A program made the translations under genes and the position numbers. 64,000 bases of DNA. Origin: Octopus vulgaris. Lineage: Eukaryota. Each line of letters starts with the position of its first letter. Within the stretch, counting starts at the first letter, position 1. The stretch lies in the NCBI GenBank assembly GCA_951406725.2, contig OX597824.1:95170001-95234000 (forward strand). Reading direction: 5' to 3'. The notes under the pieces were generated by a model. The model had not been told where the DNA came from. It was given only the letters and a program-made list of their open reading frames with translations, and searched no databases. Of the stretch, positions 22,490-61,705 are shown piece after piece.

Positions 22490-22665
22490 TTAGACTTTAG
22501 TAGGATCAATATCTTCTAGGTTATGTGAATATTTAGAGTTCCAGTCTCTTTGAAAGACTGCTTCCAGTTGATGGTGGAAATTATGTTTTTGTGCTTTTGT
22601 TGATCTGACAACCAATCCGAGGCCCACAGCAGGTGTAAAGTAATCCCCACTCCAACTAGATGTCC
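22490..22665 (-). CDS. PLD3: PLD3-like B terminal exon
   Basis: GTSSWSGDYFTPAVGLG...VFQRDWNSKYSHNLEDIDPTKV*; TAA at 22490-22492. Confidence 0.92.
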
Positions 22666-24893
22666 CTGAAACAAGATAAAGATTTATAATTAATTATTTT
22701 TATGTAAACAGTAAATGGAATGTTTGCTGAAGCACATACCTATTTCTTTACTTACCCACAAGGGGCTAAACACAGAGGGGACAAACAAGGACAGACAAAC
22801 GGATTAAGTCGATTACATCGACCCCAGTGCATAACTGGTACTTAATTTATCTACCTCGAAAGGGTGAAAGACAAAGTCGACCTTGGCGGAATTTGAACTC
22901 AGAATGTAACGGCAACATCTTGGATGGATGATAATACATATGTATACACATAAATGTATACACACACATACACATATACATATACATGCATACACATACA
23001 CACACATTTATACATACATGTAGATATATAACTATTGTTGAGATTACGGCTGTATGTAGATTACCATAAACCAGTCTGCTTTCTGTATCGTGCTGGCTTG
23101 TGATATGCAGAGCAAATGTGGGAGAGAAATTATGCTAAACACAAGTGTATATAATGTGTTCCCTGCATACATTTCACCAGTCACAATGGTGAAACATATA
23201 TAAGGAGCAAATGATACAAACTTTTGCTTATATCATTTGTTGTCGAGTACCACTGCTTGACGTCTGGCGTGTGTTGATTTGCTCAGCTAAAACCTTCTCG
23301 GTGGTGCCCCAGTCCAATGTTTGAAACAAGTAAAAGACAAAACTGAAAGATAAAAGTTTGAAAAGATATCTTACCAATAAAGGCATCAGTGTCTGTGACC
23401 ATGAATTTGTTATGGTTAATACACAAAGAAGGAATCTCTTTTTGCTCCTTGGTAAAATATGGTACTTCCAACATTTTCTATAATTTAGAATCAAAGTAAT
23501 AATTATGTTACAATAATGAATACAGCAGTTTGTCTGAGATTTTTAATAAAAGACTAGCACTATGACCTGGTGTTGCCAGGTCATAGTGCTAGTGCATGCA
23601 TATACAGCTGCGTGTGTGCACACATACATGCAAGTACTGTCCAAATCTCCAAGCAATCACATACAGCTAGCTGGCATTCAATTGGCGTATCAAGTTTCGG
23701 GCATTTTGATTGAGTTTTGGATAGAAAATTCACAAAAAAGACACTTCTATTGATTTTTAATGGCTTTGCAAGGTGACTGGGGAAATGTAAAGATGTGCAT
23801 GACCACCTTTGGATGGTTTTGAATGACCATAGAAAGTGCGAGCCCTCTAACTGAAAAATTGTAGATTTGTATAAAGGACACACACACAGACAGACATTTT
23901 GCCGTTTATATATAGAGAGATTATCTATTTTCATTATAAACAAAAAATGTCATTACAATGAACAACGAACACTGAGACAGTTTGAAGCTTATTGTTCTAG
24001 GACCAGGTATGACAGTAGCCACTGTTGTGAGTTTCTTGATGTTAACTGATCATTGTCTGTTGCTGTTGTTACCGTCCATTGTTTTTGTGTTGTTACAGTG
24101 TTCTGGTCCGCTGCTGGTTGTGCTACTGTCTGCCATCTGTCCATAGTGGCTAAAATGCGCTGAATATTTGTTTTTTACTAACCCCAAGGGGCTGAACATA
24201 GAGGGGACAAACAAAGACAGACAAACGAATAAAGTTGATTACATCGACTCCAGTGCGTAACTGGTACTTCATTTATCAACCCCGAAAGGATGAAAAGCAA
24301 AGTTGACCTTGGCGGAATTTGAACTCAGAACGTAACGGCAGACGGAATACGGCTACGTATTTCACCCGGCGTGCTAACGTTTCTGCCAACTCGCCACCCT
24401 TAAAATGCGCTGAATATATATTGGTGGTCTTACTCAAAAAAAGTGTGCCAAAGATGCAATTGTTAGATTCCACACAAAGTCTTGAGTGGTCAGATTTTTT
24501 TTGATGACATAGGTAATATTCTAGCAAATTGTAATCATATTCTTGGATTGGTTTTTTGTTTTTTTTGCCTTGGATATAGTGATCCAAGCTTTATTGCTAA
24601 ATATTCCTGCAAGATTTATGAAATTAACTTATTTATATTTTAATATTTCTCTTATCTCGGTCTTTATAACATGAAAATTGGTGAGGTGTTTAAATAACTA
24701 AAAACATCAGTTAAATGAAGAAGGACATCAACGTCATCATTTAATCTATATGTTCCATGCTGGCCAAAGGACTGCATTGGGCCCCAGGATCAACTTTGGC
24801 AGAGTTTCTAAAATCAACCGTTTGCATTATATACCAGGCAGCTTCTTATTTTGTGCCACTACCATTAACGGTACTTAATACTCTGTGTGTGTT

Positions 24894-24944
<51 letters not shown>

Positions 24945-25946
24945 TATTAAAACATTATTTAAGGCAGTATTGAGTCAGCAACGCCAACTAAAAATTGCCA
25001 AAATATCCCAGACCCTAACTGGGAGATTTTATTTATTTATTTATGTGCCCTTTTCAAGCCTAGCCAGGCTCATGGGCCCGGTTTCCCGGTTTCTATGGCG
25101 TATGTGTTCCCCCCAGCTGGATGGGATGCCAGTCCATCGCAGCGTTACACAACAAACAGGAAGAAAGAGTGAGAGAAAGTTGGGGCGAAAGAGTACAACA
25201 GGGGTCGCTGCCACCCCCTGCTGGAGCCTCGTGGAACTTTAGGTGTTTTCACGCAATAAACACACACAACGCCTGGTCTTGGAATCGAAACTGTGATCCT
25301 CCGACCGCAAGTCCACTACCCTAACCACTGGGCCATTGCACCTCCAATCGGGAGATTACTTCAATATTAATAGACAGGTGTTGTTTCTAGTCTTGTCCAG
25401 ATCTCCTATCGTTATTTCATCCAATTCCAGACAATATTTTCATTTGACTGATGTTAAAAAGACTCATTAATTTATTGTTTAACACACACACACACAGTAA
25501 CATTATTTTATGTATCAAAATATTTCGTGTGTTGACATTAATTAGGAATTTGAGTTAGAGAAAGAATTCTTGTTTTTCAGAAAATGAATCGCTTACCACT
25601 TGCATTTTAGCCTTTGAGGCGCTGTTTAAGTTAGCCAAAGATTTGAGGAAGTTGAACATACTGGCTTTGTTGTGCTTCCAATGGCTACCAAGTAGAAAAA
25701 CTTCAATGCCTTTGGTGAATGATACATTTCTAAGAGCTCTGTCAATAATTGGCCAAAACCTATAAATACAATTATTAATTTCACAGAATTATTATCAATA
25801 ATATTATCATTGGAATAAAGAAAGAAATCTGTATAAACCATAATATTTATCAACATTTATATCTAATTCATATTCTATTCACCACATGCCTTGAGGGGCC
25901 ACATGTACTGTAAACTCCATGGTTTTATGTTTATATTAATCTTTAT

Positions 25947-25994
<48 letters not shown>

Positions 25995-28201
25995 CCAACA
26001 TTATGGAATAACAACAGAAAAAAGATGGTATAGGCACACACCAGAAAAGGTCACAAAAAAAGAGAAAGCAACCATACTCTGGGATAGGCCAATACACACA
26101 GATAGAGAAATTAAGGCCAACAGACCAGATATAGTTGTCAGAGATCATGAAGAAAAAAATGCTTTTCTAATTGATGTATCAATACCGGCAGATGACAACG
26201 TGTCTCTAAAAGAAATGGAGAAACTTTCAAAATACAAAGACCTGGAAATAGAGGTAACCAGAATGTGGAATCTAAAAACAGAAACAATTCCTATCATAAT
26301 AGGTGCATGATAAAAAAATATTCAGACAAATACATAGCAAAAACACCAGGACTTACAAACACATATAACATACAGAAAATTGCACTACTGGGCACTGCAC
26401 ACATCCTACGCAGAACACTTTCCATACAATAACGATCAGAGCACCACAACAAATCACAGCACATACCCAAGGCACACAGAGCTGCGCTCGGTAGTGAAGT
26501 GAAAGCACGCTATAAAAATAAAACTACTGAATAATAATAATAATAATAATAATAATGAAATTATTGTATAGATTAATTATAAAACAATTTACAAATTATT
26601 ATGAAATTATTATAATAGGGAGCAAAGCTGCCAGAATTGTAAGTGTGTTGGATGAAATTGTTAGTGTGTTGGATGAAATTTTTAGTGGTATTTCGCCTGT
26701 CGCTACGTCCTGAGTTCAAATTCCGCTGAGGTTGACTTTGCCTTTCATCCTTTCAGTATAAAATAAATACCAGTGAAAAACTGAGGTCAATGTAATCGAC
26801 TAGACCCCTCCCGCCAAATTTCAAGCCTAGTGCCTTTAGTAGAAAGGATTATTATTATTATTAATATTATTATTATTATAAAATATAGGCGCAGGAGTGG
26901 CTGTGTGGTAAGTAGCTTGCTTACCAACCATATGGTTCTGGGTTCAGTCCCACTGTGTGGCACCCTTGGGCAAGTGTCTTCTACTATAGCCTTGGGACAA
27001 CCAAACCTTTGTGAGTGGATCTGGTAAATGGAAATTGAAAGAAGCCCGTTGTGTATGTGTGTGTGTGTATGCATATGTTTGTGTGTCTGTGTTTGTCCCC
27101 TGCAACATCGCTTGACAACTGATGGTGGTGTGTTTACGTTCCTGTCACTTAGCGGTTCAGCAAGAGAGACTGATAGAATAAGTACTAGGCTTACAAAGAA
27201 TAAGTCCTGGGATCAATTTGCTCGACTAAAGGTAGTGCTCCAGCATGGCCACAGTCAAATGACTGAATCAAGTAAAAGAATAAAAGAAAAAATGGCAAAA
27301 AGGCAGAATTGTTGACATACTGTACAAAATGTTTTGTGACATTTCATTTTTTTCCCAACTCTTTAAGGTCTGAGTTCAAATTCCACCAATGTTGACTTTG
27401 CCTTTCATCTTCTCAGGGTTGATAAAATAGGTATAAAAATGGTTGTATTACTAAATTGAAATTCTCAATTTTTCCCAAAAATTGACAGACAGAGAGTAAT
27501 TTGCTTTGGAAATATCTTTTACCTTTTACTTGTTTCAGTCATTAGACTGCGGCCATGCTGGGGCACTGCACTGAAGTATTTTTAGTTGAATGAATCAACC
27601 CCCCAGGGCTTATTTTTTCTGTCAGGCAAGGTTCTTTTCTATTGGTCTCTTTTCTCTGAATTTCTAGGTCATGGGGATGTAAACACACCAACACCAGTTG
27701 TCAAGTGGTAGAGCAGGACAAACACAGACACACACAGATATAAATATAAATATATATATATCATCATTTAATGTCCGCTATATATATATATATATATATA
27801 ATAGTAATAATTTGAGGGAATATTATTCCAAACTTACAGGGAAAAATTCAATTTAGAAATACTAAATCAAATTTCACAAAATATGACATATATATATAAA
27901 TTAGAAAAAACCACCTTTTATCAATTCAAAATGAAAAATTAAATTACACCATCTAGAAAATTACATATAATAGAAATATTAAATATAAGATAAAAAATAT
28001 ACCGATGATTAAGTAATGTGCAAAATAATAAATAAAATGTTATTCTACCAAATATATATGTTTTATTTATTATTTTGCACATTACTTAATCATTGGTATA
28101 TGTTTTTATTTTATATTTAATATTTCTATTATATGTAATTTTCTAGATGGTGTAATTTAATTTTTCATTTTGAATTGATAAAAGGTGGTTTTTTTCTAAT
28201 T

Positions 28202-28237
<36 letters not shown>

Positions 28238-28433
28238 TATTCGCCATGATAGATCACCAGCCACTACACATTCTTTATTTTCTCTCCTTGTTTCTTTCTG
28301 TGTTCCTTTCTGTTGGAGAGCGCAGGCTCGAAACATTAAAGACTTTTTCACTTCCCAAGCGTTATACTAATACATCTGTTTGTTGTCTACACCACCTATC
28401 TTTGTCTTTTGTTTTTTTTTTGTGAATTCTCCC

Positions 28434-28467
<34 letters not shown>

Positions 28468-30331
28468 GTAACAGAAAAGAGGAATTTCGGTTGTCCCCAC
28501 ATGGTGGATTGTAATGTATATAAGAAAAATAAAAACGGAAAATACGCACACTTACATGGTTATAGTATAATTTTTAATGTATCGACCGGTTTCGCAATCG
28601 CTATTCATGATACAATGTTTAATTTATATGAAAATATTTTTTTTCTTAAGAAGAAAATGGGTTCATGTTTTTTATAATGAGATTCGAAACCGTCGATACA
28701 TTAAAAATTATACTATAACCATGTAAGTGTGCGTATTTTCCGTTTTTATTTTTCTTAAGTATATATATATATATATATGGGTTTTTTTTCAGTTTATGTT
28801 TACCAAATCTACTCACAAGGTTTCAGTTGGCCCAAGATGCCATGCAGTGGGACTGGACCAGGAACCAAACTTCTTAGAACATAGCCATGCCTGCATCTGC
28901 ATGTTTGTGAATGAGTTAATGTAGAGTGCAAGGTGTAACATAAAATAACATCAATGTGAACTCAGTGAAATAAAATCTTAACAAAACTTAAACCAACAAA
29001 GGAGTAAAAAAACCACACAAAAAAAAACTTACACTGGAGGATGTTGAAATTCCAAAGCAGGAGCATAATCCATGACAGCAATGTGGATAAACTTCTTAGC
29101 AGAATTGATAACGTCCAGAATTGCATCGATGTCACCTGTTCGGCCATTTGCACAGAAAGCAGGTGGGGAAATCTGGGAAAGAAAAACAAATGATTTTTTT
29201 GATTGACCTCATGAAACAACCAATATCTGGGGTCGACTGAATTTATGTTGTTAGCTAAAATGTTTCAAAAAACTTTTTCCAAAAAGTGAAAAAGAAGGAC
29301 TGGAGATTTGGTCTCTACAAAACCCAATGGAGGTAATTTGTCAAGGAGAATGGTGACTCTGAATGAAAATAGAGTTGTGTTGCAGAAGAAAGGCATTCAA
29401 TCATAAAAATCATGCCCCAAAAATATAACATACTCAATCAGGAGTGGCTGTGTGGTAAGTAGCTTGCTTACCACAAGGCGGCGAGCTGGCAGAAACGTTA
29501 GCACGCCGGGCGAAATGCTTAGCGGTATTTCGTCTGCGTTACGTTGTGAGTTCAAATTCCGCCGAGGTCGTCTTTGCCTTTCATCCTTTCGGGGTCGATA
29601 AATTAAGTACCAGTTACACACTAGGGTCGATGTAATCGACTTAATACCTATGTCTGTCCTTGTTTGTCCCCTCTGTGTTTAGCCCTTTGTGGGTAATAAA
29701 GAAATAGGTAAGTAGCTTGCTTACAAACCATTCTATGCTCTGAGAGAGAGAGAGAGGTCCACTTTCCCAATCTTTTTCTTAAATTATTTAATGTATAACA
29801 TAAAAATCTATAACTAAAAACATACCATAAAAATCATAAAGAACAGACAAACAAAATAACATTGTTTTCTTCTCTTGCCTGCTGGTCATGTGATAGTTTG
29901 TCTACCAATTAATAAGGTCATGTGATACGTGTTGTCACATTCCAACAGTCTCTGTCTTTAACTACATATCTCCTATTTCCATCCCCCCGTCCAGCATTGC
30001 TACCACGCTCCTTCCCCACCCCCTTTCTTTCCCCCTTATATCCTATTGTTTATGAACAAATACAAAATGTCCCACCTACGATTTTATGATGGTTTGGCAT
30101 TTCATTCTTTGGAGTACACTGAATGACATTTTAAAACTGCTGTCTCTTACTTGGTTCAGTCATTGGACCGTGGCCATGCTGGTGCACTGCACTGAAGGAT
30201 TCTGGTCAAATAGACCCACTCCAGTTCTATTGTCCTTCACTCTGACATTTATTCTACTGATCTCTTTTGCCAAGCTTTTAAGTTATGGGGATGTAAACAA
30301 ACCAGTGGAGGTTGTCAAGTAGTGGTGGACA

Positions 30332-30378
<47 letters not shown>

Positions 30379-33300
30379 CAGGCTTCCACACAGTTTTTGT
30401 CTACGAAATTCATTCCCATTGGTTAACTTGGGGCTATAGTAGAAGACACTTGTCCAAGATGCCATGCAATGGGAGTGAACCCAAAACCATGTGATCGCAA
30501 AGAGAGATCCTTAACTGCACAGTCATGCCTCAATGAGATTTGTAATGGAAATCAGTGGACCAATAATGAAAAGCAATGGAAGAGAAGGTACACAAACTAT
30601 GAGTTTATTTTCCACTGGTGTTATGATTTGTTCTCTGAGTAAGTCTGAACATTTCAACAAATAAACAGTTAAGTAGATATCATGGAAACTGTGACCGATT
30701 CCTCTCCAACAGATGTGAGACATGTGTCCCTATTGACTGCTTTTAAAGACATTCAGAATAGATATCATGATTTACTGTTTGTTTTCCATGTCGGCATGGG
30801 TCGGATGGTTTGACAGGAGCTGGCAAGTCAGAAGATTGCGCCAAACTCTGCTGTCTGTGCTTTGGAATGGTTTCTACAGATGAAGGCTCTTCCTACTGCC
30901 GATCAGTTTACAGAGTGTACCGGGTGCTTTTTACATGTCACTACCACCAGTAAGGTCACCAAGAAACTTGCAAGACAAGACTCCTCGACTGAGTTGGGGA
31001 GTAGTATTGAGGGACATCTTGTAGTAGATGAGAAGCATAGCTACCTCAGGTGAAGAGAAAGGCGTCAAGCTGGCAGAAACGTTAGCACGCCAGGCGAAAT
31101 GCTAAGCGGTATTTCGTCTGCTGCTACGTTCTGAGTTCAAATTCCGCCAAGGTCGACTTTGCCTTTCATTCTTTCGGGGTCGATAAATTAGTACCAGTTA
31201 TGCACTGGGGTTGATATAATTGACTTAATCCATCTGTCTGTCCTTGTTTGTCCTCTCTGTGTTTAGCCCCTTGTGGGTAGTAAAGAAATAGGTATTTTGT
31301 CTGCTGCTACGTTTTGAGTTCAAATTCCGCCAAGGTCAACTTTGCCTTTCATCCTTTCGGGATGTACCAGTTATGCACTGGGGTCGATGTAATCGACTTA
31401 ATTTCTTTGTCTGTCCTTGTTTGTCCCCTCTATGTTTAGCCCCTTGTGGACAATAAAGAAATAAGAAAGGGGAGAGGAGGAGAGAGAGAAGATGTGTTGT
31501 GGAAGGGGGTTCACACCCAGGTTACAGGGAGGTGTATATAGTGAAGTGGACTGAAGAGGGTAAGTGGATGGGTAAGTTCATGAGATTGTGATCTCAGCCA
31601 CCTCAACATTCTCTCATCTCTCTCTCTCTCTGACCTGTCCCCACAATCTTCCCATATCTCTCTTCTTTTTTCAATGACTCTCTCAGGATCCTTGCCACCC
31701 TCATCGATTTCATGTCGCCTTCCTTCCACACCTTCTACCCATAATATGACCCACCCTGCCACCCACCTCATCACTCCCACCATGCTGATGCTCCCTTTCT
31801 CTAATCCTAACACTCATCCTTTCCTCCTTCCCCCTGTACCCTCAGTACTCCCTCTGCCCATAGTCTCTGCTCTGTTCCTCTCCCTACTACCATTCTCTCA
31901 CAACTATAAATCTTTTCCTTTCATCATATTTTACTCCTTCTCACCACTTCACCTACAATCATCACACTCTATCACTTACTCTTTTAGTAGTGGTGGCCCT
32001 TTAAGGACTTTAGTTTCAAAGTAACCTCACTAGAGCTGGTGCCATGAAAAAAACAAAAGCACTTAGTACACTCTGCAAAGTGGTGGCATAAGGAAGAGCA
32101 TCCGGGGCAGTGGAAATCATGTCGCATCAAAGACATCGGAGCACAACATGATTCTCCTTTAACTTGTTGGATCCTGTCACACTGTTTAACCCTATTAAGG
32201 GCAAACTGTAGCCTGCAGGGCTTTCTCAATGGCATGTCAACATTTTTAGTAGAGTTCTGTTGCTTGACATAAGGTCTTCCAGCAGCCAGTATCTTGACCC
32301 AGGGCAGTACTACCTCCTTCAGGTACTTGCTGTCGGCCTCCGTGTTGAATCTGAGGCCATGTGGGAAGATGAATGGAGGCATTAAATCACCATCACTAGT
32401 GATCACTGCAAACACATGATGTTGACTGGATTTTTGATTCTTATCAGATTGACACCCAAATACTCTGAGTTTTCCAGTGTTGAGCTAAATTAAACTGCAG
32501 GCTCCATTCCTGGTGGAACCTTTCCATCAATTCCTTTAAGTTTCTGTTTTGCACCCATACTCCCCCCCGGAACTGACTATGGTTTCCTGCACAGGCTCCC
32601 CGCCAGGTTGTCGAAGCGAATGCCAGTGGAGCACCAGTCGGCCTCTTTTGGAGTCTGGGAGGCCAGGTGGCAGCACCAGGCTCCAGTCTGATCTGGCAGT
32701 GTTTCTACAACTTGATGCCCTTCCTAACACCAACCACTCCATGAGTGTAGTGGCATTTTTAGCAGTGAGGCTCATCTGATGATGAACAATGTCTCACACA
32801 GCCTGCTTCTCGGAAAAGGTTGCCGATGCCTGGTTTAAGCTATGCCAACATGGTATGTGAATGTAAAATGAAGACAATGATTAGTTGCATGTTATTCTGA
32901 TAAGTAGAGAACTTACCGATAAGTACACGTTGCTATTGCTGTCATTGAGATTGATGTTCAAAGGTTTTTCTTTATTGGTTGTGGTGTTGTACACGTATGG
33001 CCATGGTTTAGGAATTGCATCAACTTTTGTCAGATACCAAAAGGTATCGAATATTTTGCCCATGTCTTCTGCGAGTGATTTGCAGTTGGAAATTATAACC
33101 CCGAGATCTTTCACCTAAAACAGAAAAGACAATGAATGAATGTACTGGAAAACAAAACAGATAAAAGCTAACAAATAGTTGAGAACAGTGAGCAACTAAA
33201 TGTCTCCCTAGTGAGGTACCCTTCAGTATAGTTTAGTGGTTAGTACAAGGTTTGATCAAAAAGTATCAGGAATGGTACTGTAAAAAGAAAACTACAACAT

Positions 33301-35801
33301 ATATCAGTCCGGCATTTAACCCTTTCGCTACCGTATTTCTGTTGAGATGGTCTGTGTTTCTTTCAATTACTTTAATTATTAACAAAGAATTTAGTAAAAT
33401 AACTTAGTTATCATTCAACTAGTGTCAGGAACATAAATTGTGACTAAGGTTTGGTGGGAGATTTTAATTGAAAACTTACGAAAACAAGACATTTGTACTC
33501 AGAGCCAGAGCCGGTTTCAGCCAGGTTGGTACCATAAGGGTTAAACAAACCTCTACATTTAGTCAGATATACATTAGAAGCAATTGGAAGGGTATGGATT
33601 GAAAGAAATATAGGCTATTATTTCTAGCATATAGAGTGACCACAACGATGTCTCCTCTTATGTGTTCTGCTCATTATTCTTCTTCTTAACCCTTTCGCTA
33701 CCGTATTTCTGTTGAGATGCTCTATGTTTCTATTTATTACTTTAATTATAACAAAGCATTTAGTAAAATAACTTAGTTATCATTCAGCTAGTGTTAGGAA
33801 CATGAACTAAGGTTTGGTGGAAGATTTTAATTCAGAACTTACGAAAACAAGACATTTGTACTCAGAGCCAGAGGTGGTTTCAGTCGGGTTGGTATCAAAA
33901 GGGTTAATCTCTTTTGAAGTAGACCCCTTCGGAAGCCACACACTTTATCCAGCATTGCTTCCATTGATGGAATGGTGAGAGCTGCCTCATTGCATTCTCT
34001 TGGATTTCTTCAATGTCTTGAAATTTTTTTCCTTTCAAGTGGGATTTGATTTTTGCCTTTGGTTTCAAGGTTACAGCCATAGACCCATGGTTTGTCACAT
34101 ATGACCATTTTCAAAGAGTTTTTGTCTTCCTTAAATTAACAGTTCTGGTTCTCTGAAACAACCAACTCCTGTGCCAGTGGCACGTTAAAAAGCATCATTC
34201 GAGTTTGGTTGTTGCCAGTGTTGCCCAATCGGCTCCCTTGCCAGTGGCACGTAAAAAGCATCATTCAAGCATGGCCAATGCCAGTGCCGCCTGACTGTCC
34301 TTTGTGCCGGTGGAATGTAAAAAGCATCCACTATACACTTGGAGTGGTTAGCATTAGGAAGAGCATCCAGTTGTAGAAATGTTGACAGATCAGAATGGGA
34401 CCTGGTGCAGCCTTCTGGCTTGCTAGTCCTCATTCAAACCGTCCAACCCATGCCAGCATGGAAAGCGGACGTTAAATGATGATGATGATGATGATGATGA
34501 CTTGTTTCTCTGGGATTAGTCAAGTGAGGGTGAAACCACTGATGAAACCCCAATAAGGATCGAAACATTGATTAAGACTCTTTTCATCATCTTTTCAATC
34601 TACAGAGAAATTTTACATGATTGTATATTTACTACACAGGTTTATAAATATTAAAAGCTAAATAAATATACATGAAATTTTTTTTTAATGAAGAAATTAG
34701 AGAAAAAATTAAGCCAAGTATTTGAAAAAAATATCTCTTACTTGAGCGAGAGAGCGCCAATTAAGATTAGAACTGCCAATATAGAAATGCCTTCTGTCAA
34801 TAATCCATATCTTTGTGTGCATAATTCCACCTCCCAACAGTTTTTTCATGTCAATGTGTCGAACTGAAGCATGAGCTGAGAAAAAAAAAAGAAAAAAAAG
34901 AAAAGAATTTTCATCTTCAACATCATCATTTAACATCTGCTCTCCATGCTGGCATGGGTTAGATGGTTTGACTGGTACTGGTAAGTGGAGAGCTGCACCA
35001 AGTCCCAGTCTTATTTGACATGGTTTCTACAGCTGGATGCCCTTTCTAACACCAACCACTCCAAGAGTATAATGGGTGCTTTTTACATCCAGCGGCACAG
35101 GTGTTTCTGTGCTAGCGACACAGGTGCTTTTACATACCCTTGGTATGGGTGCCAGTTATATGATACCAGCATCAGCCAAGACTATGATTTCACTTGGCTT
35201 CACAAGTCTTCTGAAGCTCAGCATGTCACCTAAGGTCCCAGTGACTTGTCATTGCCTCCGTAAAACCCAGCATTCGAACATCATGCTTTACCACCTTGTC
35301 CCATGTCTTTCTGGGTCTACTTCTTCCCCAGGTTTGTGTCACAGTTACATATTGGCACTTCTTTACGCAGCTGTCCTCGTCCATAAAATTTTGAGATTGT
35401 AATTTCTATTTCTTTATTACCCACAAGGGGCTAAACACAGAGGGGACAAACAAGGACAGACAAACGGATGAAGTCGATCATATTGACACCAGTGCATAAC
35501 TGGTACTTATTTAATCGACCCCAAAAGGACGAAAGGCATGCTAACGTTTCTGCCAGCTCGCTGCCTTAAAATATGCAGTTATATCATCATAATCTCAAAG
35601 CTATGAGATAATGCATGATTATTTCAAAACAATGTGAAGGCGCAGGAGTGGCTGTGTAGTAAGTAGCTTGCTAACCAACCACATGGTACCGGGTTCAGTC
35701 CCACTGCGTGGCATCTTGGGCAAGTGTCTTCTACTATAGAACCAGGCCGACCAATGCCTTGTGAGTGGATTTGGTAGACGGAAACTGAAAGAAGCCTGTC
35801 G

Positions 35802-35832
<31 letters not shown>

Positions 35833-38800
35833 ATATATATATATGTATGTGTGACACGTAAAAGCACCGTCCGTTCGTGGCCGTTTGCCAGCCCTGTCTG
35901 GCACCGTGTCGGTGGCACATAAAAGCACCATCCGTTCGTGTCCGTTGCCAGCCTCGGCTGGCCCCCGTGCCGGTGACATGTAAAAGCACCGTCCGTTTGT
36001 GGCCGTTTGCCAGCTCTGTCTGGCAACCGTGTCGGTGGCACGTAAAAGCACCATCCGTTCGTGTCCGTTGCCAGCCTCGGCTGGCCCCCATGCCGGTGAC
36101 ACGTAAAAGCACCATCCGTTCGTGGCCGTTTGCCAGCTCAGTCTGGCACCTGTGTAGGTGGCACGTAAAAAACACCCACTACACTCGCGGAGTGGTTGGC
36201 GTTAGGAAGGGCATCCAGCCGTAGAAACACTGCCAGATCTGACTGGGCCTGACGAAGCCTCTCCAGCTTCACAGACCCCAGTTGACCCGTCCAACCCATG
36301 CTAGCATGGAAAGCGGACGCTAAATGATGATGATGATGATGATGATGTGTGTGTCTGTGTTTGTCCCCCTAGCATTGCTTGACAACCGATGCTGGTGTGT
36401 TTACGTCCCCGTCACTTAGCGGTTCGGCAAAAGAGACCGATAGAATAAGTACTGGGCTTACAAAGAATAAGTCCCGGGGTTGATTTGCTCGACTAAAGGC
36501 GGTGCTCCAGCATGGCCGCAGTCAAATGACTGAAACAAGTAAAAGAGTAAATAAGGAATACATTTTGACAGAATAATCTCTGAGTGCCAAAAGGGTTAAA
36601 GGTGTCATAGCACAATAATCTGGCATCCTTTTGCAAACTGTCTTACATTAAAGAAATATTTAAATACTATTATTTTATGGTTGCATGGTAAGAAGCTTGC
36701 TTCTCAACGACTTGATTTTGAGTTCAGTCCTACTGCAAGGCACCTTGGGCACTGGCAATGACCTTGATCTACTGTAATTTCAAGTCAATCAAAGCTTTGT
36801 GAGTGGATTTGGTAGATGGAAACTGAAAGAAGCCCATCGTGTATGTATGTGTGTGTGTATATGTATATATGTATGTGTGTGTCTTTGTGTCTGTGTTTGC
36901 CCCCACGACCACCACTTGACAACTGTAACTAAGCAATTTGGCAAAAGCAGTTGATAGAATAAATATCAGGGAATGGTTTGTTTGTCAAAAATTCTTCAAG
37001 GCAGTGCCCCAGCATGGCCTCAGTTTAATGACCGAAACAAGTAAAGGCAAAAGATAGGAAATTTTCTCACCGTCTTCAATTAATATTTCTGTATCTGGAC
37101 TTTGCATTTCAGAATTTGGTTTATTTTCAAGTAATTTGATTTCTACGTTCCTGTTTTTACCAGCTGACAAAAGATGTTGAAAAAGGTTTGTATCCTATAG
37201 AAAGAAGTGTAAAATTTTTTATCTGTTATTTTATATAATATGGTTCATAGAATATTGGTTACAAATTTTAGCACAAAGCCAGTATTTACAAGGGAAGATG
37301 CTAAGATTACATTGCCCCCAATGTGCAACTGGTACTTATTTATATCAACCCTGAAAGAATGTAAGGCAAAGTCGACTTTGGTGAAATTTGAACTCAGGGC
37401 ATAAAGATGGATGAAATTCCGCAAAGCATTTTGCCTGCTGTGCTAACCATTCTGCCAGCTCACTGCCTTATCATGGTCAACAGAATATTAAAATGTATCA
37501 AATTCGATGACTGGTATCCGTGCTAGTGGAGTGCTAAGAGCACCATCCAAGCGTGATCGTTGCCAGAGCAGCTAACTGGCTTCCATGCCGGTGGCACATA
37601 AAAAGCACCATTTGAGTGTAATCATTACCAGTGTTGCCTTACTGGTACTTGTGTCGGTGGCACGTGAAAAAAAACATTCGAGCGAGGTCATTGCCAGTGC
37701 TGCTGCTGGACTGGCTCCTGTGCAGGTGGCATGTAAAAAACCCCATTTGAGCATGGCTGTTGCCAGTACCGCCTGACTGGCCCTCATACCGGTGGCACGT
37801 AACAGCACCCACTACACCCTCAGAGTGGTTGGCGTTAGGAAGGGCATCCAGCTGTAGAAACTCTGCCAGATCAAGATTGGAGCCTGGTGCAGCCATCTGG
37901 TTCGCCAGTCCTCAATCAAATCGTCCAACCCATGCCAGCATGGAAAGCGGATGTTAAACGATGATGATGATGATGATCACACATTAATAAGTGAACAAAA
38001 AACCAAACAACTTACTTCCAACTCTGATGGCAGTTGATGTACATCTTGGGCATCCAGTGTCCAATGAAAAGAGGCTATCTCAATTGTGTCCTTGGCTTCT
38101 TCAATCAAAGACAAAAGACCGTCATAGGTAGATAGGTGTGATGGTGAACCTGGGGCATAGGTCATATCTTTGGGGACAGTCTCAACTAAGGATATCCTGA
38201 AATAGAAATATGAAAGATTCATTATCAGTTGAGATGAAAAATTTGGTGAAAGTAATTAAATAAAATGCGAATAACGAAAATAATTGTAGTAAAAATTGTT
38301 TGCCAACATAACATGGCAGTCCTAGTTTAGGATGAATGTTGCTGTAATTTAGCCCCAGGAGACACGATCTGTGTCCTTATGTTTCCGAACAAGGGAATCT
38401 AGCACCCCAACTCAGCTCAAAACAATATCTGTGTATCGCGATTTCCAGGTTATTTCCCTTCATCAGCACAGAATAATTGTTCGGCTAGAGGTGGCACTGC
38501 CAAATTCCCATTCGAAATATATAGTTTTCAAAGTGACAACTAGTCACTGATCTATAAATTAGAAGATCTTTGCCACAAAGTACTGTTGCTGAATATCTCA
38601 CGTTGTGAGATTTAAAAATAGTAATTTTTCTATGAAAATAATTGTTGTCAACTTGCTATGAAATACAGGGAAAACACCTGCAATTAATGTATTGGTATAA
38701 AAAGCATGTGCTGGGGCCACATAAAAAGCAACCCAATACACTCTGTATATAGTTACAAAAAATTATTTTTTAAATCTGTCGGTCAAAAGATAAAGATCCC

Positions 38801-38978
38801 AATTAAGTGACTAAAATATTGCAAAACTTTACAGTTAATAATTATAATTAATATAGTAATGCCATTTTGCATACATGGAATCTACTTACCAACAGTCGTC
38901 GACAAAGGCTTGACGATTTTCCAGAAGGAAAGTTAAGATAATCACAGTAAGGCTTGCAAAAAAAATAACTAAGGTCAT
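22490..38978 (-). CDS. PLD3: PLD3/PLD4-like phospholipase D-superfamily protein, paralog B (435 aa, 9 coding exons, divergent active-site residues)
   Basis: Exons 38978-38890, 38196-38016, 37194-37071, 34875-34742, 33114-32917, 29172-29033, 25759-25597, 23477-23375, 22665-22490; all GT-AG with matching phases, 1308 nt. Motifs IASFHWTL, HTKIWIID, SPPAFCANGRTGDIDAI, FWPIID, HNKFMVTD, VFQRDWNSKY. Confidence 0.92.
23375..23477 (-). CDS. PLD3: PLD3-like B exon 8 (second HKD motif)
   Basis: KMLEVPYFTKEQKEIPSLCINHNKFMVTDTDAFI; 103 nt. Confidence 0.93.
24168..24400 (-). mobile_element. SINE (ggcggcgagctggcagaaacgttagc family) with a 17-bp target-site duplication
   Basis: taaaatgcgctgaatat at 24151 and 24401; many copies of this family across the window (e.g. 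4830-5920 cluster, 7950-8182, 29477-29706, 31060-31465, 43770-44150). Confidence 0.85.
25597..25759 (-). CDS. PLD3: PLD3-like B exon 7
   Basis: FWPIIDRALRNVSFTKGIEVFLLGSHWKH...KMQV; 163 nt. Confidence 0.92.
25994..26530 (+). mobile_element. 5'-truncated R4/Dong-like non-LTR element (restriction-like endonuclease domain) inside a (TAA)n array
   Basis: NRPDIVVRD..FLIDVSIPADDNVSLKEMEKLSKYKDLEIEVTRMW..IPIIIGA..IQKIALLGTAHILRRTL; (TAA)n on both flanks. Confidence 0.8.
27891..28210. repeat. AT-rich fold-back palindrome (arms about 145 bp)
   Basis: aaattagaaaaaaccaccttttatcaattcaaaatg... / ...cattttgaattgataaaaggtggtttttttctaattt. Confidence 0.9.
28521..28757. repeat. Inverted repeat (arms about 73 bp) overlapping a hammerhead motif
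   Basis: taagaaaaataaaaacggaaaatacgcacacttacatgg...gtttcg / cgaaaccg...ccatgtaagtgtgcgtattttccgtttttatttttctta. Confidence 0.9.
28578..28614 (-). ncRNA. Minimal hammerhead motif, A3-U8 core variant
   Basis: UGUAUC-AUGAAUA-GCGAUUGC-GAA-ACCGGU-C-GAUACA. Confidence 0.55.
29033..29172 (-). CDS. PLD3: PLD3-like B exon 6
   Basis: ISPPAFCANGRTGDIDAILDVINSAKKFIHIAVMDYAPALEFQHPP; 140 nt. Confidence 0.93.
32917..33114 (-). CDS. PLD3: PLD3-like B exon 5
   Basis: VKDLGVIISNCKSLAEDMGKIFDTFWYL...VYLS; 198 nt. Confidence 0.93.
33245..34130 (-). mobile_element. Mariner remnant interrupted by two MITEs
   Basis: LKGKKFQDIEEIQENA..WKQCWIKCVASEGVYF; TIR-like tacaaggtttgatcaaaaagtatc at 33245 resembles the terminus at 52208. 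Confidence 0.65.
34742..34875 (-). CDS. PLD3: PLD3-like B exon 4 (first HKD motif)
   Basis: GIMHTKIWIIDRRHFYIGSSNLNWRSLAQ; 134 nt. Confidence 0.94.
35637..36548 (+). mobile_element. tRNA-derived SINE (aggcgcaggagtggctgtgtgg family) with a nested (ATG)n-tailed element carrying internal tandem repeats
   Basis: Head 35637-35800, insert 35852-36347, tail 36348-36548; other copies at 19630-19995, 26886-27285, 40886-41272, 42285-42660 (-), 51445-51828 (-), 53720-54118. Confidence 0.85.
37071..37194 (-). CDS. PLD3: PLD3-like B exon 3
   Basis: DTNLFQHLLSAGKNRNVEIKLL...; 124 nt; AG/GT. Confidence 0.9.
38016..38196 (-). CDS. PLD3: PLD3-like B exon 2
   Basis: ISLVETVPKDMTY...IEIASFHWTLDAQD; 181 nt; AG/GT. 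Confidence 0.92.
38428..38472 (-). ncRNA. Type I hammerhead ribozyme motif (canonical C3-G8 core)
   Basis: UCUGUG-CUGAUGA-AGGGAAAUAACCUG-GAA-AUCGCGAU-A-CACAGA: 6-bp stem I, complete core, palindromic stem III, AUA cleavage triplet. Confidence 0.7.
38890..38978 (-). CDS. PLD3: PLD3-like B coding exon 1 (signal peptide/anchor MTLVIFFASLTVIILTFLLENRQAFVDDC)
   Basis: acaATG with in-frame upstream stops; acceptor at 39016-39017; gtaagt donor; phase 2 joins the next exon. Confidence 0.8.
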
Positions 38979-39702
38979 TGTTCAAGCCTTTGATGCAGCT
39001 CACTTCATTAGCAATCTATAAAAAAACAACAACAAAATTTCATGAATATATACATAATTTATCATATGTGTGTGTGTGTGTGTGTGTGCGTGTGTATGCA
39101 CGTGTATGTGTATGTATGTAGGTGTGTGTGTGTGTATACTCTGCTGAGTGGTTGGTGTTAGGTAGGGCATCCAGCTGTAAAAACCCACCCAAAACAGCTA
39201 TAGAAGTCTAGTGCAGGCTCCTGCCTGGCCAGCTCCTTGCAAACCGTCCAACCCATGCCAGGATGGAAGGCGGATGCTGAATAATGATGATGATAATGAT
39301 GCTGATCATATGTGTGTGTGTGTGTGCGTGCGTGTATATAAGTGTATATATATATATAAATAAATATATATATATATATTTGTGCTGGTGGCACTTAAAA
39401 AGCACCAACCGATCGTAGCTGTTGCCAGCCTCACCTGGCCCCTATGCCAGTGGCACGTAAAAAGCACCCACTACACTCACGGAGTGGTTGGTGTTAGGAA
39501 GGGCATCCAGCCGTAGAAACACTGCCAGATCAGATTGGAGCCTGGTGCAGCCTTCTGGCCTCCCAGACCCCAGTCGAACTGTCCAACCCATGCTAGCATG
39601 GAAAACGGACGTTAAACGATGATGATGATGATATATATATGTCTGTGTATGTATGTATGTGCGTGTGTGTGTGTTTAAATATGAATATATATATATTTTA
39701 AA

Positions 39703-42800: not shown

Positions 42801-45243
42801 GGTTGTATTATTGAGCAAAGCACTTCATTTCGCGTTGCTTTGCGATCGTTTCGACACCTGACGTGTGGCACCCCGTGCACCTGTATGGAGGGAGCTAATG
42901 TACAACACAAACCTTTATTTGATCACTATAAACAAATCATCTATGAAAGTTGTTAAGCAAGAAGTTGCGGAAGCCTCGTCTGTCGTTTACGATAGGAGAA
43001 TCTACTTTAGTATCGAAACTTAAGCCGAAGTTTGCCAGCCATCCATCCTGTTTTAGAGTGATCATACCTAAATCAGTCCCTGTTTTAACATCGTATCGTG
43101 GCCCTTTAGCGGACTCCGTGGCAAACATTTTATGACCAGATCTTCGGTTTGAGGAAAACTTCTTCCTACTAGTTTACGAGGACTTGACTAATAGGCGTTG
43201 CCCTTCCTCCGCAAACTAGGCCATAAAAATAAATGAAAGTAATAATTAAAAAATTACATGGTATACCAGTAATGACATGACTTATTTTTTTTCAATTGAA
43301 GTTAACTGAATATTTATTATATTGGATATAAAAATGCAAAGATAAATAGAGCGAACATAAAGTGATATGAACAGAAAACCCAATATCAAATACTTGTAAA
43401 CATGACACAGTTTTACAAAGTTTGTGCTTTCTAATGTTACTTAGCCCCACGGCTGGCCCTACAACCAAAGGCGGCCCATCTGGCCCTTTTATATATATCA
43501 GAGACTAGATTGTCTAATGTATGCGCCTTCATATATATATCAATAACGATATGGTGTGGTCAAGGGAAATTTAGCTGCTGTTTCTAAGAACTCGAGTGAC
43601 CACATAAAGGCTCGAGTCTAGTTGGAGTTTTCAATATAAATAAAGCAAGCAGAGAAACACCATAACCATGTGGAAGAATTTCTTGTGACATATTCACTAG
43701 CAGTGCGTGTCCTACTCGCTACAGTTACCAAGCTAAATTCCCCTAAACCACACCATATATATAGCGCTTGCGCCGGGCGAAATGCTTAGCGGTATTTCGT
43801 CTGTCGTTACGTTGTGAGTTCAAATTCCGCCGAGGTCGACTTTGCCTTTCATCCTTTCGGGGTCGATAAATTAAGTACCAGTTACGCACCAGTGCGTAAC
43901 TGGTACTTAATGTAATCGACTTAATACCTATGTCTGTCCTTGTTTGTCCCCTCTGTGTTTAGCCCCTTGTGGGTAATAAAGAAATAGGTATTTCGTCTGT
44001 CGTTACGTTCTGAGTTCAAATTTGCCTTTCATTCTTTCGGGGTCGATAAATTAAGTACCAGTTTCGCACTGGAGTCGATGTAATCGACTTAATCCCTTTG
44101 TCTGTCCTTGCTTGTCCCCTCTATGTTTAGCCCCCTGTGGGCAATAAAGAAATATATAATATATACGCCTGTGTGACATCTGGGTCGTTTAGGCAGTGGC
44201 GGTAATTTTCAAACGTGAATGTCCTTTATTTATTCTGATGTGATAAAATTCAATTTTGTACTAAGAAGTTTTTGGGGATTTGACGATATGTTATAAAGCT
44301 AAACCCTTTATGGACGGGAAAGCTAAGGTAATCCCATAGACCGGCCTTCCTCATTTTTAATATATATGGAGTCGAGTTAGTTTCTCGACTCTGGTTTTCG
44401 TCTGTGAGTGTACAAGTCTTCGTAACTTGCCTGAAGACCCTCAAACAAAACAGTAGCAAGAGAGTGGACTCGATCAAAGGGAACAGAAAAAAAAAATATT
44501 AATCTTCACTATGGTATCGAATGCTCTTTTTCCTCAAAATAAACTTGTGTGCATCCACGCGCGCAAGTACATGCTTTGCAACCACATGGCACAGTTTCGA
44601 TCCCACCGCGCGGCACTTAGGGTAAATGTATTTTATTATAGTCTCGGGTTGACTTGTTGAAATAGTATAGGAGAAACAGCGGACTTCCGGGATAGTTAGC
44701 ACTACCACAGAGGGAAGAGAAATGGCAACGAATTGGAGATCAAAAGTGTAAAAAAAAAAAGCAAATTAAATTTTTTGAAAAAAAAAATAGATTAAAAAAT
44801 TCCCATCCCATGTCTTGCCCCTTTTCTTTCCCCATTGAGGGAGAGACTGATATCGCTTCCGAAAGTCCGCCGACGGAAGTTATATAGGAAACTCTGCGGA
44901 TAGAACTCATGTAATTCAACAGGACAAGCTTATCACACCGTTTCTCCCTGAAAATTACCCTGTCTTAGGAATACTCGACCACGTACACACACAACTCTAC
45001 AGCGTAAGTTCAAATGATCTAACTACAGGAGCGCTCCTGGACGAAACCATTTACTTTTAAATAGAAAACAGTATTAAGAGTAACAATTAATAATTATACG
45101 ATACATTGCTAATTTTCACGCAATTTCGCTAATTTATGATAAATTTGAGGAAAGAAAAAGTCAGTGGAGGCAATAAAATTTACTTTCTGTATGTATGAAA
45201 CTGATAAAAAAAAAAAATAAAATACAGATTTTTGTAGGGACAT

Positions 45244-48887: not shown

Positions 48888-49048
48888 TTATCTTCTTTTT
48901 ACGGGATGTGAATATTTAGAGTTCCAGTCTCTTTGAAAGACATCTTCAAGTTGCTGGCGCAAATTTGGTTTCTTTGTATTTGTTGGTCTGACAATTATTC
49001 CCAAACCTCCTGTGGATGTAAAGTAATCACCGCTCCAGTTGGACGTTC
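48888..49048 (-). CDS. PLD3: PLD3-like A terminal exon
   Basis: GTSNWSGDYFTSTGGLG...VFQRDWNSKYSHPVKRR*; TAA at 48888-48890; AATAAA just downstream. Confidence 0.93.
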
Positions 49049-61000: not shown

Positions 61001-61705
61001 TCAAAAGGATGACAGGCAAAGTCAACCTCGGCGGAATTTGGACTCAGAACGTAACGGCAGATGAAATACAGCTAAGCATTTCACCCAGCATGCTAACGTT
61101 TCCGCCAGCTCACCGCCCTATATTTTCATTCTTGTCAAATTTTGGTAAGTGCACAATTTGTCGTGGCATTACGTGCGTGTTGTAAGCGAGTGTCAGTGTC
61201 ATGCCAGTGGTAGTCTTTCTTTCCAAAGTTCTGTGAAATTGTAACTGGTCATGGGAAAATATATCAGGTTTGCTTGGGAACAGGTGAGAAGTGATAACAG
61301 GAAGGGCATCAAGGTGTAGAAAATCCATTTCAATGAATTCCACCTGAACCATGCAAGCATTTAAAGTGTGTTGTGATTTTAGTTTTGATCACGTGATTTT
61401 GACTGTCTTGATTGCTGCCATATGCCTGCAGTTGATTTGCTCAACTAAAGATGGTGCTCCAGCATGGCTGAAGTCAAATGACTGAAACAAATAAAATAAA
61501 AGAAAGCCTGATCAAATCATGTTACTCAACCTATTGATCTTTACTCAACCTATTGAGTACTACTGAGCTATTGAGTCACCTTTAAAGTATGAAAAAGTAT
61601 TAAAGTCATCTGTACTTACATACATTCTGTATTCATCTCATCAAACAGGAAGCTGTATGAGCCTAACACACTCAAGTACAGGGAAAATATAAGCTGCAAA
61701 ATCAT
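48888..61705 (-). CDS. PLD3: PLD3/PLD4-like 5'-3' exonuclease/phospholipase D-superfamily protein, paralog A (at least 429 aa, 9 coding exons)
   Basis: Exons 61705-61620, 59983-59803, 58852-58729, 56264-56131, 54496-54299, 53071-52932, 51002-50840, 49812-49710, 49048-48888; GT-AG with consistent phases, 1290 nt. Motifs IASFYWSL, HTKMWLVD..GSNNLDWRS..KEMG, IPFARVNHDKYMVTD..GTSNWSGDYF, VFQRDWNSKY. Confidence 0.93.
49710..49812 (-). CDS. PLD3: PLD3-like A exon 8 (second HKD motif)
   Basis: KFFHVPSFTPEQDKIPFARVNHDKYMVTDTDAYI; 103 nt. Confidence 0.94.
50285..50430 (-). mobile_element. LINE (CR1/L2/Jockey-type) 3' coding fragment
   Basis: SFFPRTSELWNPLPQSCFPLRYDRQSFKS. Confidence 0.6.
50840..51002 (-). 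CDS. PLD3: PLD3-like A exon 7
   Basis: FWPVIDNALRTVSFNKGVEVFMMCSLWKHT...RIQV; 163 nt; gtatgt donor. Confidence 0.92.
52208..52880 (+). mobile_element. Mariner remnant, N-terminal HTH region
   Basis: tacacggtctgatcaataagtatccggact terminus; AYTKLQKEYGEECMSCTQVYEWFRYF. Confidence 0.75.
52932..53071 (-). CDS. PLD3: PLD3-like A exon 6
   Basis: SSPPPFCANGRTGDIDAILDVIHSAKKFIHIAVMDYAPALIYAYPK; 140 nt. Confidence 0.94.
54299..54496 (-). CDS. PLD3: PLD3-like A exon 5
   Basis: IKEMGAIVTKCSSLAQDMGKLFDVYWYL...TYLS; 198 nt. Confidence 0.94.
56131..56264 (-). CDS. PLD3: PLD3-like A exon 4 (first HKD motif)
   Basis: AGILHTKMWLVDRKHFYVGSNNLDWRSFTQ; 134 nt. Confidence 0.95.
56413..56715 (+). mobile_element. 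tRNA-derived SINE (second family); minus-strand copies at 25040-25345 and 53190-53490
   Basis: A box tggcctagtgg, B box ggttcgaatct, followed by a non-tRNA body. Confidence 0.8.
57041..57362 (+). mobile_element. tRNA-derived SINE with a CORE-like tgtgtccttgagcaa segment
   Basis: A box tggcttagtgg, B box agttcgattcc. Confidence 0.7.
58729..58852 (-). CDS. PLD3: PLD3-like A exon 3
   Basis: GENIFKKLIDAGKNRKITIKIVQNKP...; 124 nt. Confidence 0.9.
59803..59983 (-). CDS. PLD3: PLD3-like A exon 2
   Basis: ISLAESVPENLTYPAGSPSHLTTYDGIMSLIENAKHTIEIASFYWSL; 181 nt. Confidence 0.93.
60360..60860 (-). mobile_element. RTE-clade LINE 3' fragment
   Basis: MLHGSETWPVNAEDMCRLVRNEASMIRWMCNIS..QERRLCWYGHVLRM; related pieces at 4540-4750, 17660-18040 and 59068-59225. 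Confidence 0.85.
61620..61705 (-). CDS. PLD3: PLD3-like A coding exon 1 (MILQLIFSLYLSVLGSYSFLFDEMNTEC); exon extends to 61744 with an open frame
   Basis: Acceptor ttgtctctttttatag at 61745-61746; gtaagt donor; phase 2; hydrophobic segment ending in the Cys also seen in paralog B. Confidence 0.75.

What the first reader, a model, noticed from the sequence alone, without database searches (positions are those of the whole stretch)
22490..38978. Paralog B: intact reading frame but a remodelled PLD3 active site (candidate pseudo-enzyme or new specificity)
Seen: B keeps both HxK(x)4D motifs but differs from A and from the family consensus at several nearby positions. These are GTSN to GTSS (Asn equivalent to human N432), KE(L/M)G to KDLG (E229 equivalent), N(M/L)DWRS to NLNWRS, IP(Y/F)ARVNH to IPSLCINH, and SFYW to SFHW. 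Established: the Asn of the G(S/T)xN motif binds phosphate and the downstream Glu positions the catalytic His in PLD-superfamily enzymes; PLD3/4 are lysosomal 5' exonucleases also reported to make BMP. Inference: 435 codons and all splice sites preserved despite roughly 30% nucleotide divergence argue for selection on an altered or non-catalytic role, perhaps as a heterodimer partner of A.
Basis: partly seen in the sequence, partly recalled or inferred. Interest (0 to 1): 0.7.

Follow-up and report, generated by a model that had tools for sequence, protein, structure and literature searches.

The report
Octopus PLD3 duplicate with eroded active site
Octopuses carry a second, intact and spliced copy of the lysosomal enzyme gene PLD3 whose nucleotide-binding pocket has been rebuilt, so it likely no longer cuts DNA well and is likely kept for a binding or partner role, as happened separately to PLD3 copies in other animals.

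Summary
Observation confirmed. B has 9 coding exons, GT-AG introns and 435 codons, and differs from tandem paralog A at 30.0% of aligned bases. All five motif changes are real. Y126H, D220N, E229D, R413C and N432S (human numbering) occur in 0 of 134 close homologs. B is octopod-specific, with orthologs in O. sinensis, O. bimaculoides and Argonauta. Its stem branch is about 4 times A's; in Octopus it then evolved at A's rate. RNA-like contigs from two studies join its exons.

Substrate-pocket changes came first. Octopus then lost N432, while Argonauta lost K203 instead.

Best reading (0.5): a nuclease-attenuated, PLD5-like duplicate kept for a non-catalytic role. New substrate: 0.3. Similar degenerate PLD3 copies recur in flies, mites, scorpions, acorn worm and fish, so the theme is known; this octopod case was not found in print. 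No activity was measured.

The parts
38890..38978 (-). B exon 1 (coding part): ATG and short hydrophobic N-terminus with no cytosolic tail (likely signal peptide or anchor); the exon starts at an acceptor near 39016, so a 5' UTR exon lies upstream
   Evidence: X1 contig depth covers 17 bases of the 39001-39055 bin
38016..38196 (-). B exon 2; His74 at 38066-38064 replaces human Y126 (binds the 5'-OH)
   Evidence: role from PMC12749308
37071..37194 (-). B exon 3
   Evidence: joined to exon 2 in contig X8/25
34742..34875 (-). B exon 4: HKD1 intact (H at 34819, K at 34813), N218 kept, D220N at 34762-34760
32917..33114 (-). B exon 5: E229D at 33108-33106
29033..29172 (-). B exon 6; 29159-29056 is a likely A/B gene-conversion tract (3 mismatches in 104 nt against A 53058-52955)
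25597..25759 (-). B exon 7: dimer helices (F341, R350, F377, S380, L384 equivalents kept), W367 and H369 kept; a cryptic GC donor lies 7 nt before the GT donor
23375..23477 (-). B exon 8: Y411S (23429-23427), R413C, V414I; HKD2 intact (H at 23414, K at 23408)
22490..22665 (-). B exon 9: N432S at 22657-22655 (AGT vs AAC in A), Y437 kept, T441A, stop codon
48888..61705 (-). Paralog A: canonical PLD3, 9 coding exons (61705-61620, 59983-59803, 58852-58729, 56264-56131, 54496-54299, 53071-52932, 51002-50840, 49812-49710, 49048-48888); all catalytic and first-nucleotide pocket residues canonical
   Evidence: 400 of 400 aa identical to O. vulgaris CAI9730716.1

Best explanation
B is an intact, spliced, selectively retained octopod-specific tandem duplicate of PLD3 that has likely lost most 5'-exonuclease activity and is likely kept as a folded, non-catalytic or weakly catalytic subunit that binds a ligand or partners A. 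Shown by sequence and tree: after duplication in the octopod stem, the pocket for the first nucleotide changed (Y126H, Y411S, R413C/W, V414I, E229D, T441A/S) while all six phosphate-binding residues stayed. Later each lineage lost a different phosphate ligand: N432S (with D220N) in Octopus; K203N (with W367L, H369Q) in Argonauta. The fold and core dimer residues were kept. Inferred: without base stacking, the 5'-OH contact and one phosphate ligand, turnover on ssDNA/RNA is low; A remains the working enzyme; B acts through the PLD3 dimer surface (A/B or B/B) or by binding without cutting, an early independent parallel to vertebrate PLD5.
For: Retention. Open 435-442 aa frame in 4 species. dN/dS A vs B 0.34. 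O. vulgaris vs O. bimaculoides differences 43 of 435 for B and 39 of 429 for A, p=0.73. They fall on 2 of 118 conserved vs 29 of 193 variable columns, p=5e-5; Octopus vs Argonauta B 35 of 118 vs 98 of 193, p=3e-4. Spliced RNA-like contigs in 2 of 2 such runs laid. Loss of nuclease function. 5 of 13 conserved pocket positions changed in B vs 15 of 105 elsewhere (p=0.044); A changed 0 of 13. Human N432A gave complete loss; K203A left 0.7% and also abolished BMP synthesis. Among 119 diverse representatives with all 7 catalytic positions aligned, 106 are canonical; N432S occurs in 2, both lacking a catalytic His. Two lineages lost different essential residues. Fold kept: TM 0.84-0.85 to PLD3 structures, model confidence equal to A's (78.1 vs 78.0). 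R350, F377 and S380 equivalents kept in all B. A/B model score 0.82 vs best control 0.02 (mark reached by 51 of 78 solved and 2 of 108 mismatched pairs; runs agree in at least 12% of contacts, partner pLDDT at least 69); PLD3 homodimers are solved, so this shows likeness only.
Against: Octopus B still has both His, both Lys and N218, plus W367, H369, F335 and Y437. None of the 6 phosphate ligands changed on the 0.53-long stem (chance about 0.04 if drifting at the mean rate), which suggests catalysis was still selected then. E229A and Y411A keep 36% and 45%; Y411A behaved like wild type in cells. N432S is untested, and Ser could keep a hydrogen bond. Argonauta B evolves over twice as fast as its A (0.67 vs 0.30), has 21 private changes at conserved columns and a deletion in a dimer helix, so it may be decaying separately and say little about Octopus B. 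The Argonauta sequence is one gene model, unchecked against DNA. Pocket enrichment is not significant for Argonauta B (p=0.28). No activity, tissue or protein data.
Confidence: 0.5

Rival explanations
1. B is an active phosphodiesterase or phosphotransferase with a new substrate, for example lyso-PG to BMP transphosphatidylation or 5'-phosphorylated ends. The stem changes opened the narrow 5'-OH pocket and removed base stacking while keeping the His-Lys core.
For: Fast stem evolution then A-like constraint in Octopus. No phosphate ligand lost on the stem. H126, D229, S411 and I414 identical in Octopus and Argonauta at 58% overall identity. Y126 and Y411 shape the space that excludes a 5'-phosphate. 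Active E. coli PssA uses Asp169 as a His partner, and the passage names one Asn at the phosphate; PLD1/2 have Asp about 2 A from E229. B lost the basic character of cephalopod PLD3 (core pI 5.6-7.9 vs 8.9-9.5).
Against: N432A kills human PLD3. Natural N432S seen only with His loss, 2 of 2. Argonauta B K203N would abolish both known activities. The lower pI is the family norm (median 6.4 of 112).
Confidence: 0.3
2. B is simply a slower PLD3 exonuclease kept for dosage or tissue-specific expression.
For: Five of 6 phosphate ligands and most contacts to nucleotides 2-3 are kept in Octopus; single E229A and Y411A mutants keep 36-45%.
Against: Changes stack at five otherwise invariant or aromatic sites; likely gene conversion with A homogenised exon 6 and part of exon 9 but not the active-site codons; the Argonauta ortholog lacks K203.
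Confidence: 0.15
3. B is a transcribed copy slowly decaying to a pseudogene, or is mainly made as the frameshifted GC-donor form.
For: Public O. vulgaris model is frameshifted after exon 7. B lineage faster than A overall (relative rate 66 vs 38, p=0.006). Argonauta B heavily eroded.
Against: Open frame in 4 species across a split older than about 46 Ma (bracket from PMC7104719); A-like rate and avoidance of conserved sites in Octopus; two RefSeq models use the GT donor.
Confidence: 0.05

Closest known systems
Human/mouse PLD3 (lysosomal 5'-3' exonuclease, reported S,S-BMP synthase; PDB 8Q1X, 8V05, 9VBH)
   Same: Fold (TM 0.84-0.85), two HxK(x)4D/E motifs, Pfam PLDc, PLDc_2 and PLDc_3 above cut-off, core dimer residues, H201/K203/N218/H416/K418, W367, H369, F335, Y437.
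   Different: Y126H, D220N, E229D, Y411S, R413C, N432S, T441A; no cytosolic tail (also true of A); C-terminus ends before the R488 region; 3 glycosylation sequons vs 6 in A.
Vertebrate inactive PLD5 (e.g. Narcine XP_069786473)
   Same: PLD3-family paralog kept with a degenerate active site, including change at N432 and at the Y126/R413 pocket.
   Different: The PLD5-like rows lose a His, K203 and N218 as well; Octopus B keeps these. B arose inside octopods, so it is not a PLD5 ortholog.
Other degenerate PLD3 paralogs: Saccoglossus XP_077865553 (E229D + N432D, His/Lys intact), seahorse XP_019725333 (a cluster member is named PLD member 7; N432D), Drosophila setifemur KAH8410066, mite KAI1294785, Centruroides XP_067136558
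   Same: Erosion at N432 and E229 of a retained PLD3 copy; the Saccoglossus protein matches B's pattern most closely.
   Different: Different substitutions in separate animal groups, so likely independent origins (not tested by tree). I found no functional study, though these proteins were not searched one by one.

Membership tests
PLD3/PLD4 family (by descent) | Two-lobed PLD fold with two HxK(x)4D/E motifs in one chain | tested here: met
PLD3/PLD4 family (by descent) | Groups with PLD3 homologs; shares intron positions with canonical A | tested here: met
   B+A clade 96/92 inside cephalopod PLD3 100/99; 7 internal exons of equal length
Active PLD3-type 5' exonuclease | Six phosphate ligands H201, K203, N218, H416, K418, N432 | tested here: not met
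   5 of 6 in Octopus B (N432S); 5 of 6 in Argonauta B (K203N)
Active PLD3-type 5' exonuclease | Glu229 partner of His416 | tested here: not met
   Asp in all B; effect probably mild, E229A keeps 36%
Active PLD3-type 5' exonuclease | First-nucleotide pocket Y126, D220, aromatic 411 | tested here: not met
   H, N, S in Octopus B; H, D, S in Argonauta B
Active PLD3-type 5' exonuclease | Measured acid 5'-3' exonuclease activity | not testable with these tools
   needs an assay
PLD3 dimer | Interface residues F341, D347, R350, Y354, E355, F377, S380, L384 | tested here: inconclusive
   F341, R350, F377, S380, L384 kept in Octopus B; D347 and E355 differ in A and B alike; Argonauta B lacks 354-355. 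A/B model passes, possibly by likeness to the solved homodimer
PLD5-type pseudoenzyme | Loss of catalytic His/Lys | tested here: not met
   Both His and both Lys kept in Octopus B; one Lys lost in Argonauta B
PLD5-type pseudoenzyme | Orthology with vertebrate PLD5 | tested here: not met
   B is sister to octopod A; no PLD5 row was in that tree
BMP synthase | Transphosphatidylation of lyso-PG with monoacylglycerol | not testable with these tools
   needs H/K of both motifs; these are present in Octopus B, not in Argonauta B

The most novel reading that the evidence does not exclude
Octopus A and B split the two disputed jobs of PLD3: A stays the nuclease, while B, stripped of its nucleotide contacts but keeping both His-Lys pairs and gaining the Asp seen in lipid PLDs, is a lipid-only transphosphatidylase (BMP synthase), perhaps in an A/B heterodimer. 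It would be a natural separation-of-function enzyme.
Probability: 0.12. Interest if true: 0.75.

Novelty: new variant of a known kind. Interest (0 to 1): 0.4.

Why it matters
PLD3 is linked to Alzheimer's disease risk, and whether it is a nuclease, a lipid synthase or both is disputed (PMC11653685 has a section titled 'PLD3 is not a phospholipase'; PMC12055030 reports BMP synthesis). B is a natural variant that removes the nucleotide contacts but keeps the His-Lys core, so an A vs B assay speaks to which residues serve which activity. If B is inactive, it is a datable early step on the road PLD5 took, with two lineages losing different residues. It also shows that databases mislabel B as a plain exonuclease and that the O. 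vulgaris model is probably mis-spliced. The impact is moderate, because degenerate PLD3 copies recur across animals.

Tried and rejected
Branch dN/dS among B orthologs: not obtained. No ortholog CDS was available, and the two related-species runs laid (X19, X20) gave only 8 listed coding differences in exons 1-3 (4 codons changed, 3 silent; the table was cut), too few to use.

Reads were laid on exons 1-3 only, so the exon 7/8 junction, RNA editing at active-site codons and expression level are untested. No listed holder was on record as RNA; the evidence for RNA is the exon-to-exon joins. A-to-I editing could not restore N432, E229, Y126 or Y411 from the genomic codons; it could in principle turn N220 (AAT) back to Asp.

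More B-type sequences from other octopods: none in the 'shorter' search (4 hits, 40-54% identity) or among the best 150 representatives, apart from P0001 itself. Further PLD3 copies in the genome: 15 matches, all in A or B.

Destabilised pocket in B: rejected as unsupported, since the A model has similar low-confidence loops. Venom or saliva role: no hit for PLD3 names or three accessions in the one salivary-gland supplement searched. Other genes in the window: 0 of 28 ORFs reached a Pfam cut-off. Earlier findings: none. Two upstream stretches were fetched and not analysed.
Full report
Gene structure. The window is G000:C11:95170001-95234000 of a 2.8 Gb genome. It holds two head-to-tail PLD3 genes on the minus strand. 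B has 9 coding exons, 1308 nt, 435 codons plus stop, and 8 GT-AG introns; its 7 internal exons match A's in length. A's exons 2-9 give 400 of 400 residues identical to O. vulgaris CAI9730716.1. A search of the genome with A gave 15 matches, all in A or B. A and B differ at 359 of 1197 aligned bases; Nei-Gojobori dS 0.85, dN 0.29, ratio 0.34.

Numbering. I mapped residues to human PLD3 by hand from the alignment with chain 8s86_A, anchored on H201; the offset reproduced every literature residue checked. Octopus B keeps H201, K203, D208, N218, H416, K418, F335, W367, H369 and Y437. It has Y126H, D220N, E229D, Y411S, R413C, V414I, N432S and T441A. B's residue at Y126, D220, E229, R413, V414 and N432 was seen in 0 of 134 non-B homologs (P0001 left out as frameshifted). 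Of 13 conserved literature-defined pocket positions B changed 5, against 15 of 105 other conserved positions (p=0.044); A changed 0 of 13.

What those residues do. In human PLD3 the scissile phosphate is held by K203, N218, K418, N432 and the two His; Y411 stacks the first base; Y126 binds the 5'-OH; D220 makes water-mediated contacts (PMC12749308, Results parts 1-2 of 3; PMC10783504, section 26). N432A lost all activity in cell lysates while reaching lysosomes. Source data for Fig. 2b of PMC12749308 (supplement 4) give activity relative to wild type: K203A 0.7%, K418A 0.8%, Y437F 3%, W367A 35%, E229A 36%, F335A 42%, Y411A 45%, H369A 62%. So N432S is the serious change and E229D and Y411S are each likely mild. 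N-to-S itself is untested. Asp at or near the E229 place occurs in active PLD1/2 (PMC11653685, passages) and E. coli PssA (PMC11654701, passages). PMC10690185 (passages) agrees that the mouse N432 and E229 equivalents contact the phospho-His intermediate and the His.

History. B orthologs exist in O. sinensis (430 of 435 identical), O. bimaculoides (392 of 435) and Argonauta hians (247 of 426; its accession is adjacent to an A-type gene). Squid/cuttlefish-type hits were all canonical. A 23-row tree places the duplication after the decapodiform split and before Octopus and Argonauta parted (A+B 96/92, B 100/100, A 97/95). That later split lies roughly between 46 and 101 Ma, bracketed by two nodes in PMC7104719 (passages). 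B's stem is 0.53 against A's 0.14. Afterwards Octopus B (0.16 plus 0.05-0.07) matches Octopus A (0.18 plus 0.04-0.07), while Argonauta B (0.67) outruns its A (0.30). Between O. vulgaris and O. bimaculoides B differs at 43 of 435 and A at 39 of 429 (p=0.73), and B's differences avoid conserved columns (2 of 118 vs 29 of 193). Y126H, E229D, Y411S, V414I and loss of R413 and T441 are shared by all B and so date to the stem. D220N and N432S are Octopus-only. K203N, R222N, W367L and H369Q are Argonauta-only, and Argonauta keeps N432. Each lineage thus lost a different phosphate ligand. No ligand changed on the stem (chance about 0.04 under mean-rate drift, a rough figure), so B may first have been an enzyme with a new pocket.

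Natural context. Of 146 new 50%-identity representatives, 119 had all seven catalytic positions aligned: 106 canonical, 13 deviant. N432S occurred in 2, both lacking a catalytic His; E229D in 2, both with other catalytic changes. Eight of the 13 were looked up: acorn worm, Drosophila, mite, scorpion, seahorse, a ray 'inactive PLD5-like', and two unnamed. Degenerate PLD3 copies are therefore a recurring theme.

Expression. Twenty of 24 listed runs hold B's last exon or part of it; none is on record as RNA. Four were laid on exons 1-3. In X8 one contig runs from exon 3 straight into exon 2. In X1 one contig at depth 66 covers exon 2 exactly, and bin depths fit cover of exons 1 and 3 and not the intron edges. 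If these contigs continue through exons 4 and 5 as modelled, they end 60 and 43 bases into exon 6. Sixty is exactly where the first 31-mer shared with A begins; 43 fits the same branch if one A/B mismatch is absent in that animal. This suggests A and B transcripts occur in the same samples (inference). Levels and tissues are unknown.

Gene conversion. Exon 6 bases 14-117 differ from A at 3 of 104 positions; 28 of 30 consecutive same-residue codons are identical (permutation p=0.009 for a 30-codon window; 0.09 and 0.03 for 20 and 35), and exon 9 has a 36-nt identical run. The tracts miss the active-site codons. They lower dS and dN locally.

Structure. AlphaFold models of O. bimaculoides B and A from the same 15 sequences are equally confident (pLDDT 78.1 and 78.0). 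B's best matches are PLD3 structures (TM 0.84-0.85). Human PLD3 needs its dimer surface to fold and leave the ER (PMC10783504, passages). B keeps R350, F377 and S380 in all species, though Argonauta lacks 354-355. An A/B model scored 0.82 against a best control of 0.02; the mark was reached by 51 of 78 solved and 2 of 108 mismatched pairs; runs agree in at least 12% of contacts, partner pLDDT at least 69, and the top-scoring run had no confident contacts. Since PLD3 homodimers are solved, this shows likeness, not binding. B's core pI is 5.6-7.9 against 8.9-9.5 for A and decapodiform PLD3; the family median is 6.4.

Annotation. The public O. vulgaris model P0001 equals a form spliced at a GC donor 7 nt early, which shifts the frame and removes motif 2. 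Two RefSeq orthologs use the GT donor. I consider P0001 a likely error or minor isoform; it was not tested with reads.

Literature. Searches for PLD3 with octopus or cephalopod and for inactive PLD3 paralogs listed no study of this gene (listings and abstract starts only). PMC12055030 was read as passages and PMC7693380 only as a supplement search. Subscription papers and other supplements were not seen and could hold expression data.

Verdict. Real, retained and likely expressed alongside A. Most likely a nuclease-attenuated duplicate with a non-catalytic role (0.5), then a new-substrate enzyme (0.3), a slower copy (0.15) or decay (0.05). A new variant of a known kind; interest 0.4.

Noticed in passing
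window 29159-29056 (B exon 6) vs 53058-52955 (A exon 6); also 36 nt in exon 9: Near-identical tracts between paralogs otherwise 30% apart, including silent sites: likely gene conversion, possibly still polymorphic.
   Followed up: partly
window 25604-25597: A cryptic GC donor 7 nt before B's exon 7 donor explains the frameshifted public model CAI9730715.1.
   Followed up: partly
window 61705-61620 and 38978-38890: Cephalopod PLD3s (A, B and squid/cuttlefish types) begin with a short hydrophobic stretch and little or no cytosolic tail, unlike the type II anchor of most homologs; they may be routed as soluble proteins.
   Followed up: no
window 48888-61705 (gene A): Coleoid PLD3 is unusually basic: core pI 8.9-9.5, while 2 of 112 other homologs reach 9. 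Octopus A also has HDK for HNK in motif 2.
   Followed up: no
P0146 (Saccoglossus XP_077865553): A PLD3 paralog with E229D plus N432D and intact His/Lys parallels B's pattern.
   Followed up: partly
window about 44600-45000: A stretch between A and B with CCGGAAG/CTTCCG words (ETS-like, recalled motif) could be B's promoter and 5' UTR exon.
   Followed up: no
window 35851-36170: Tandem array of period 61/123 in B intron 3; introns and 1-22000 are otherwise filled with dispersed repeats, and no ORF tested there reached a Pfam cut-off.
   Followed up: no
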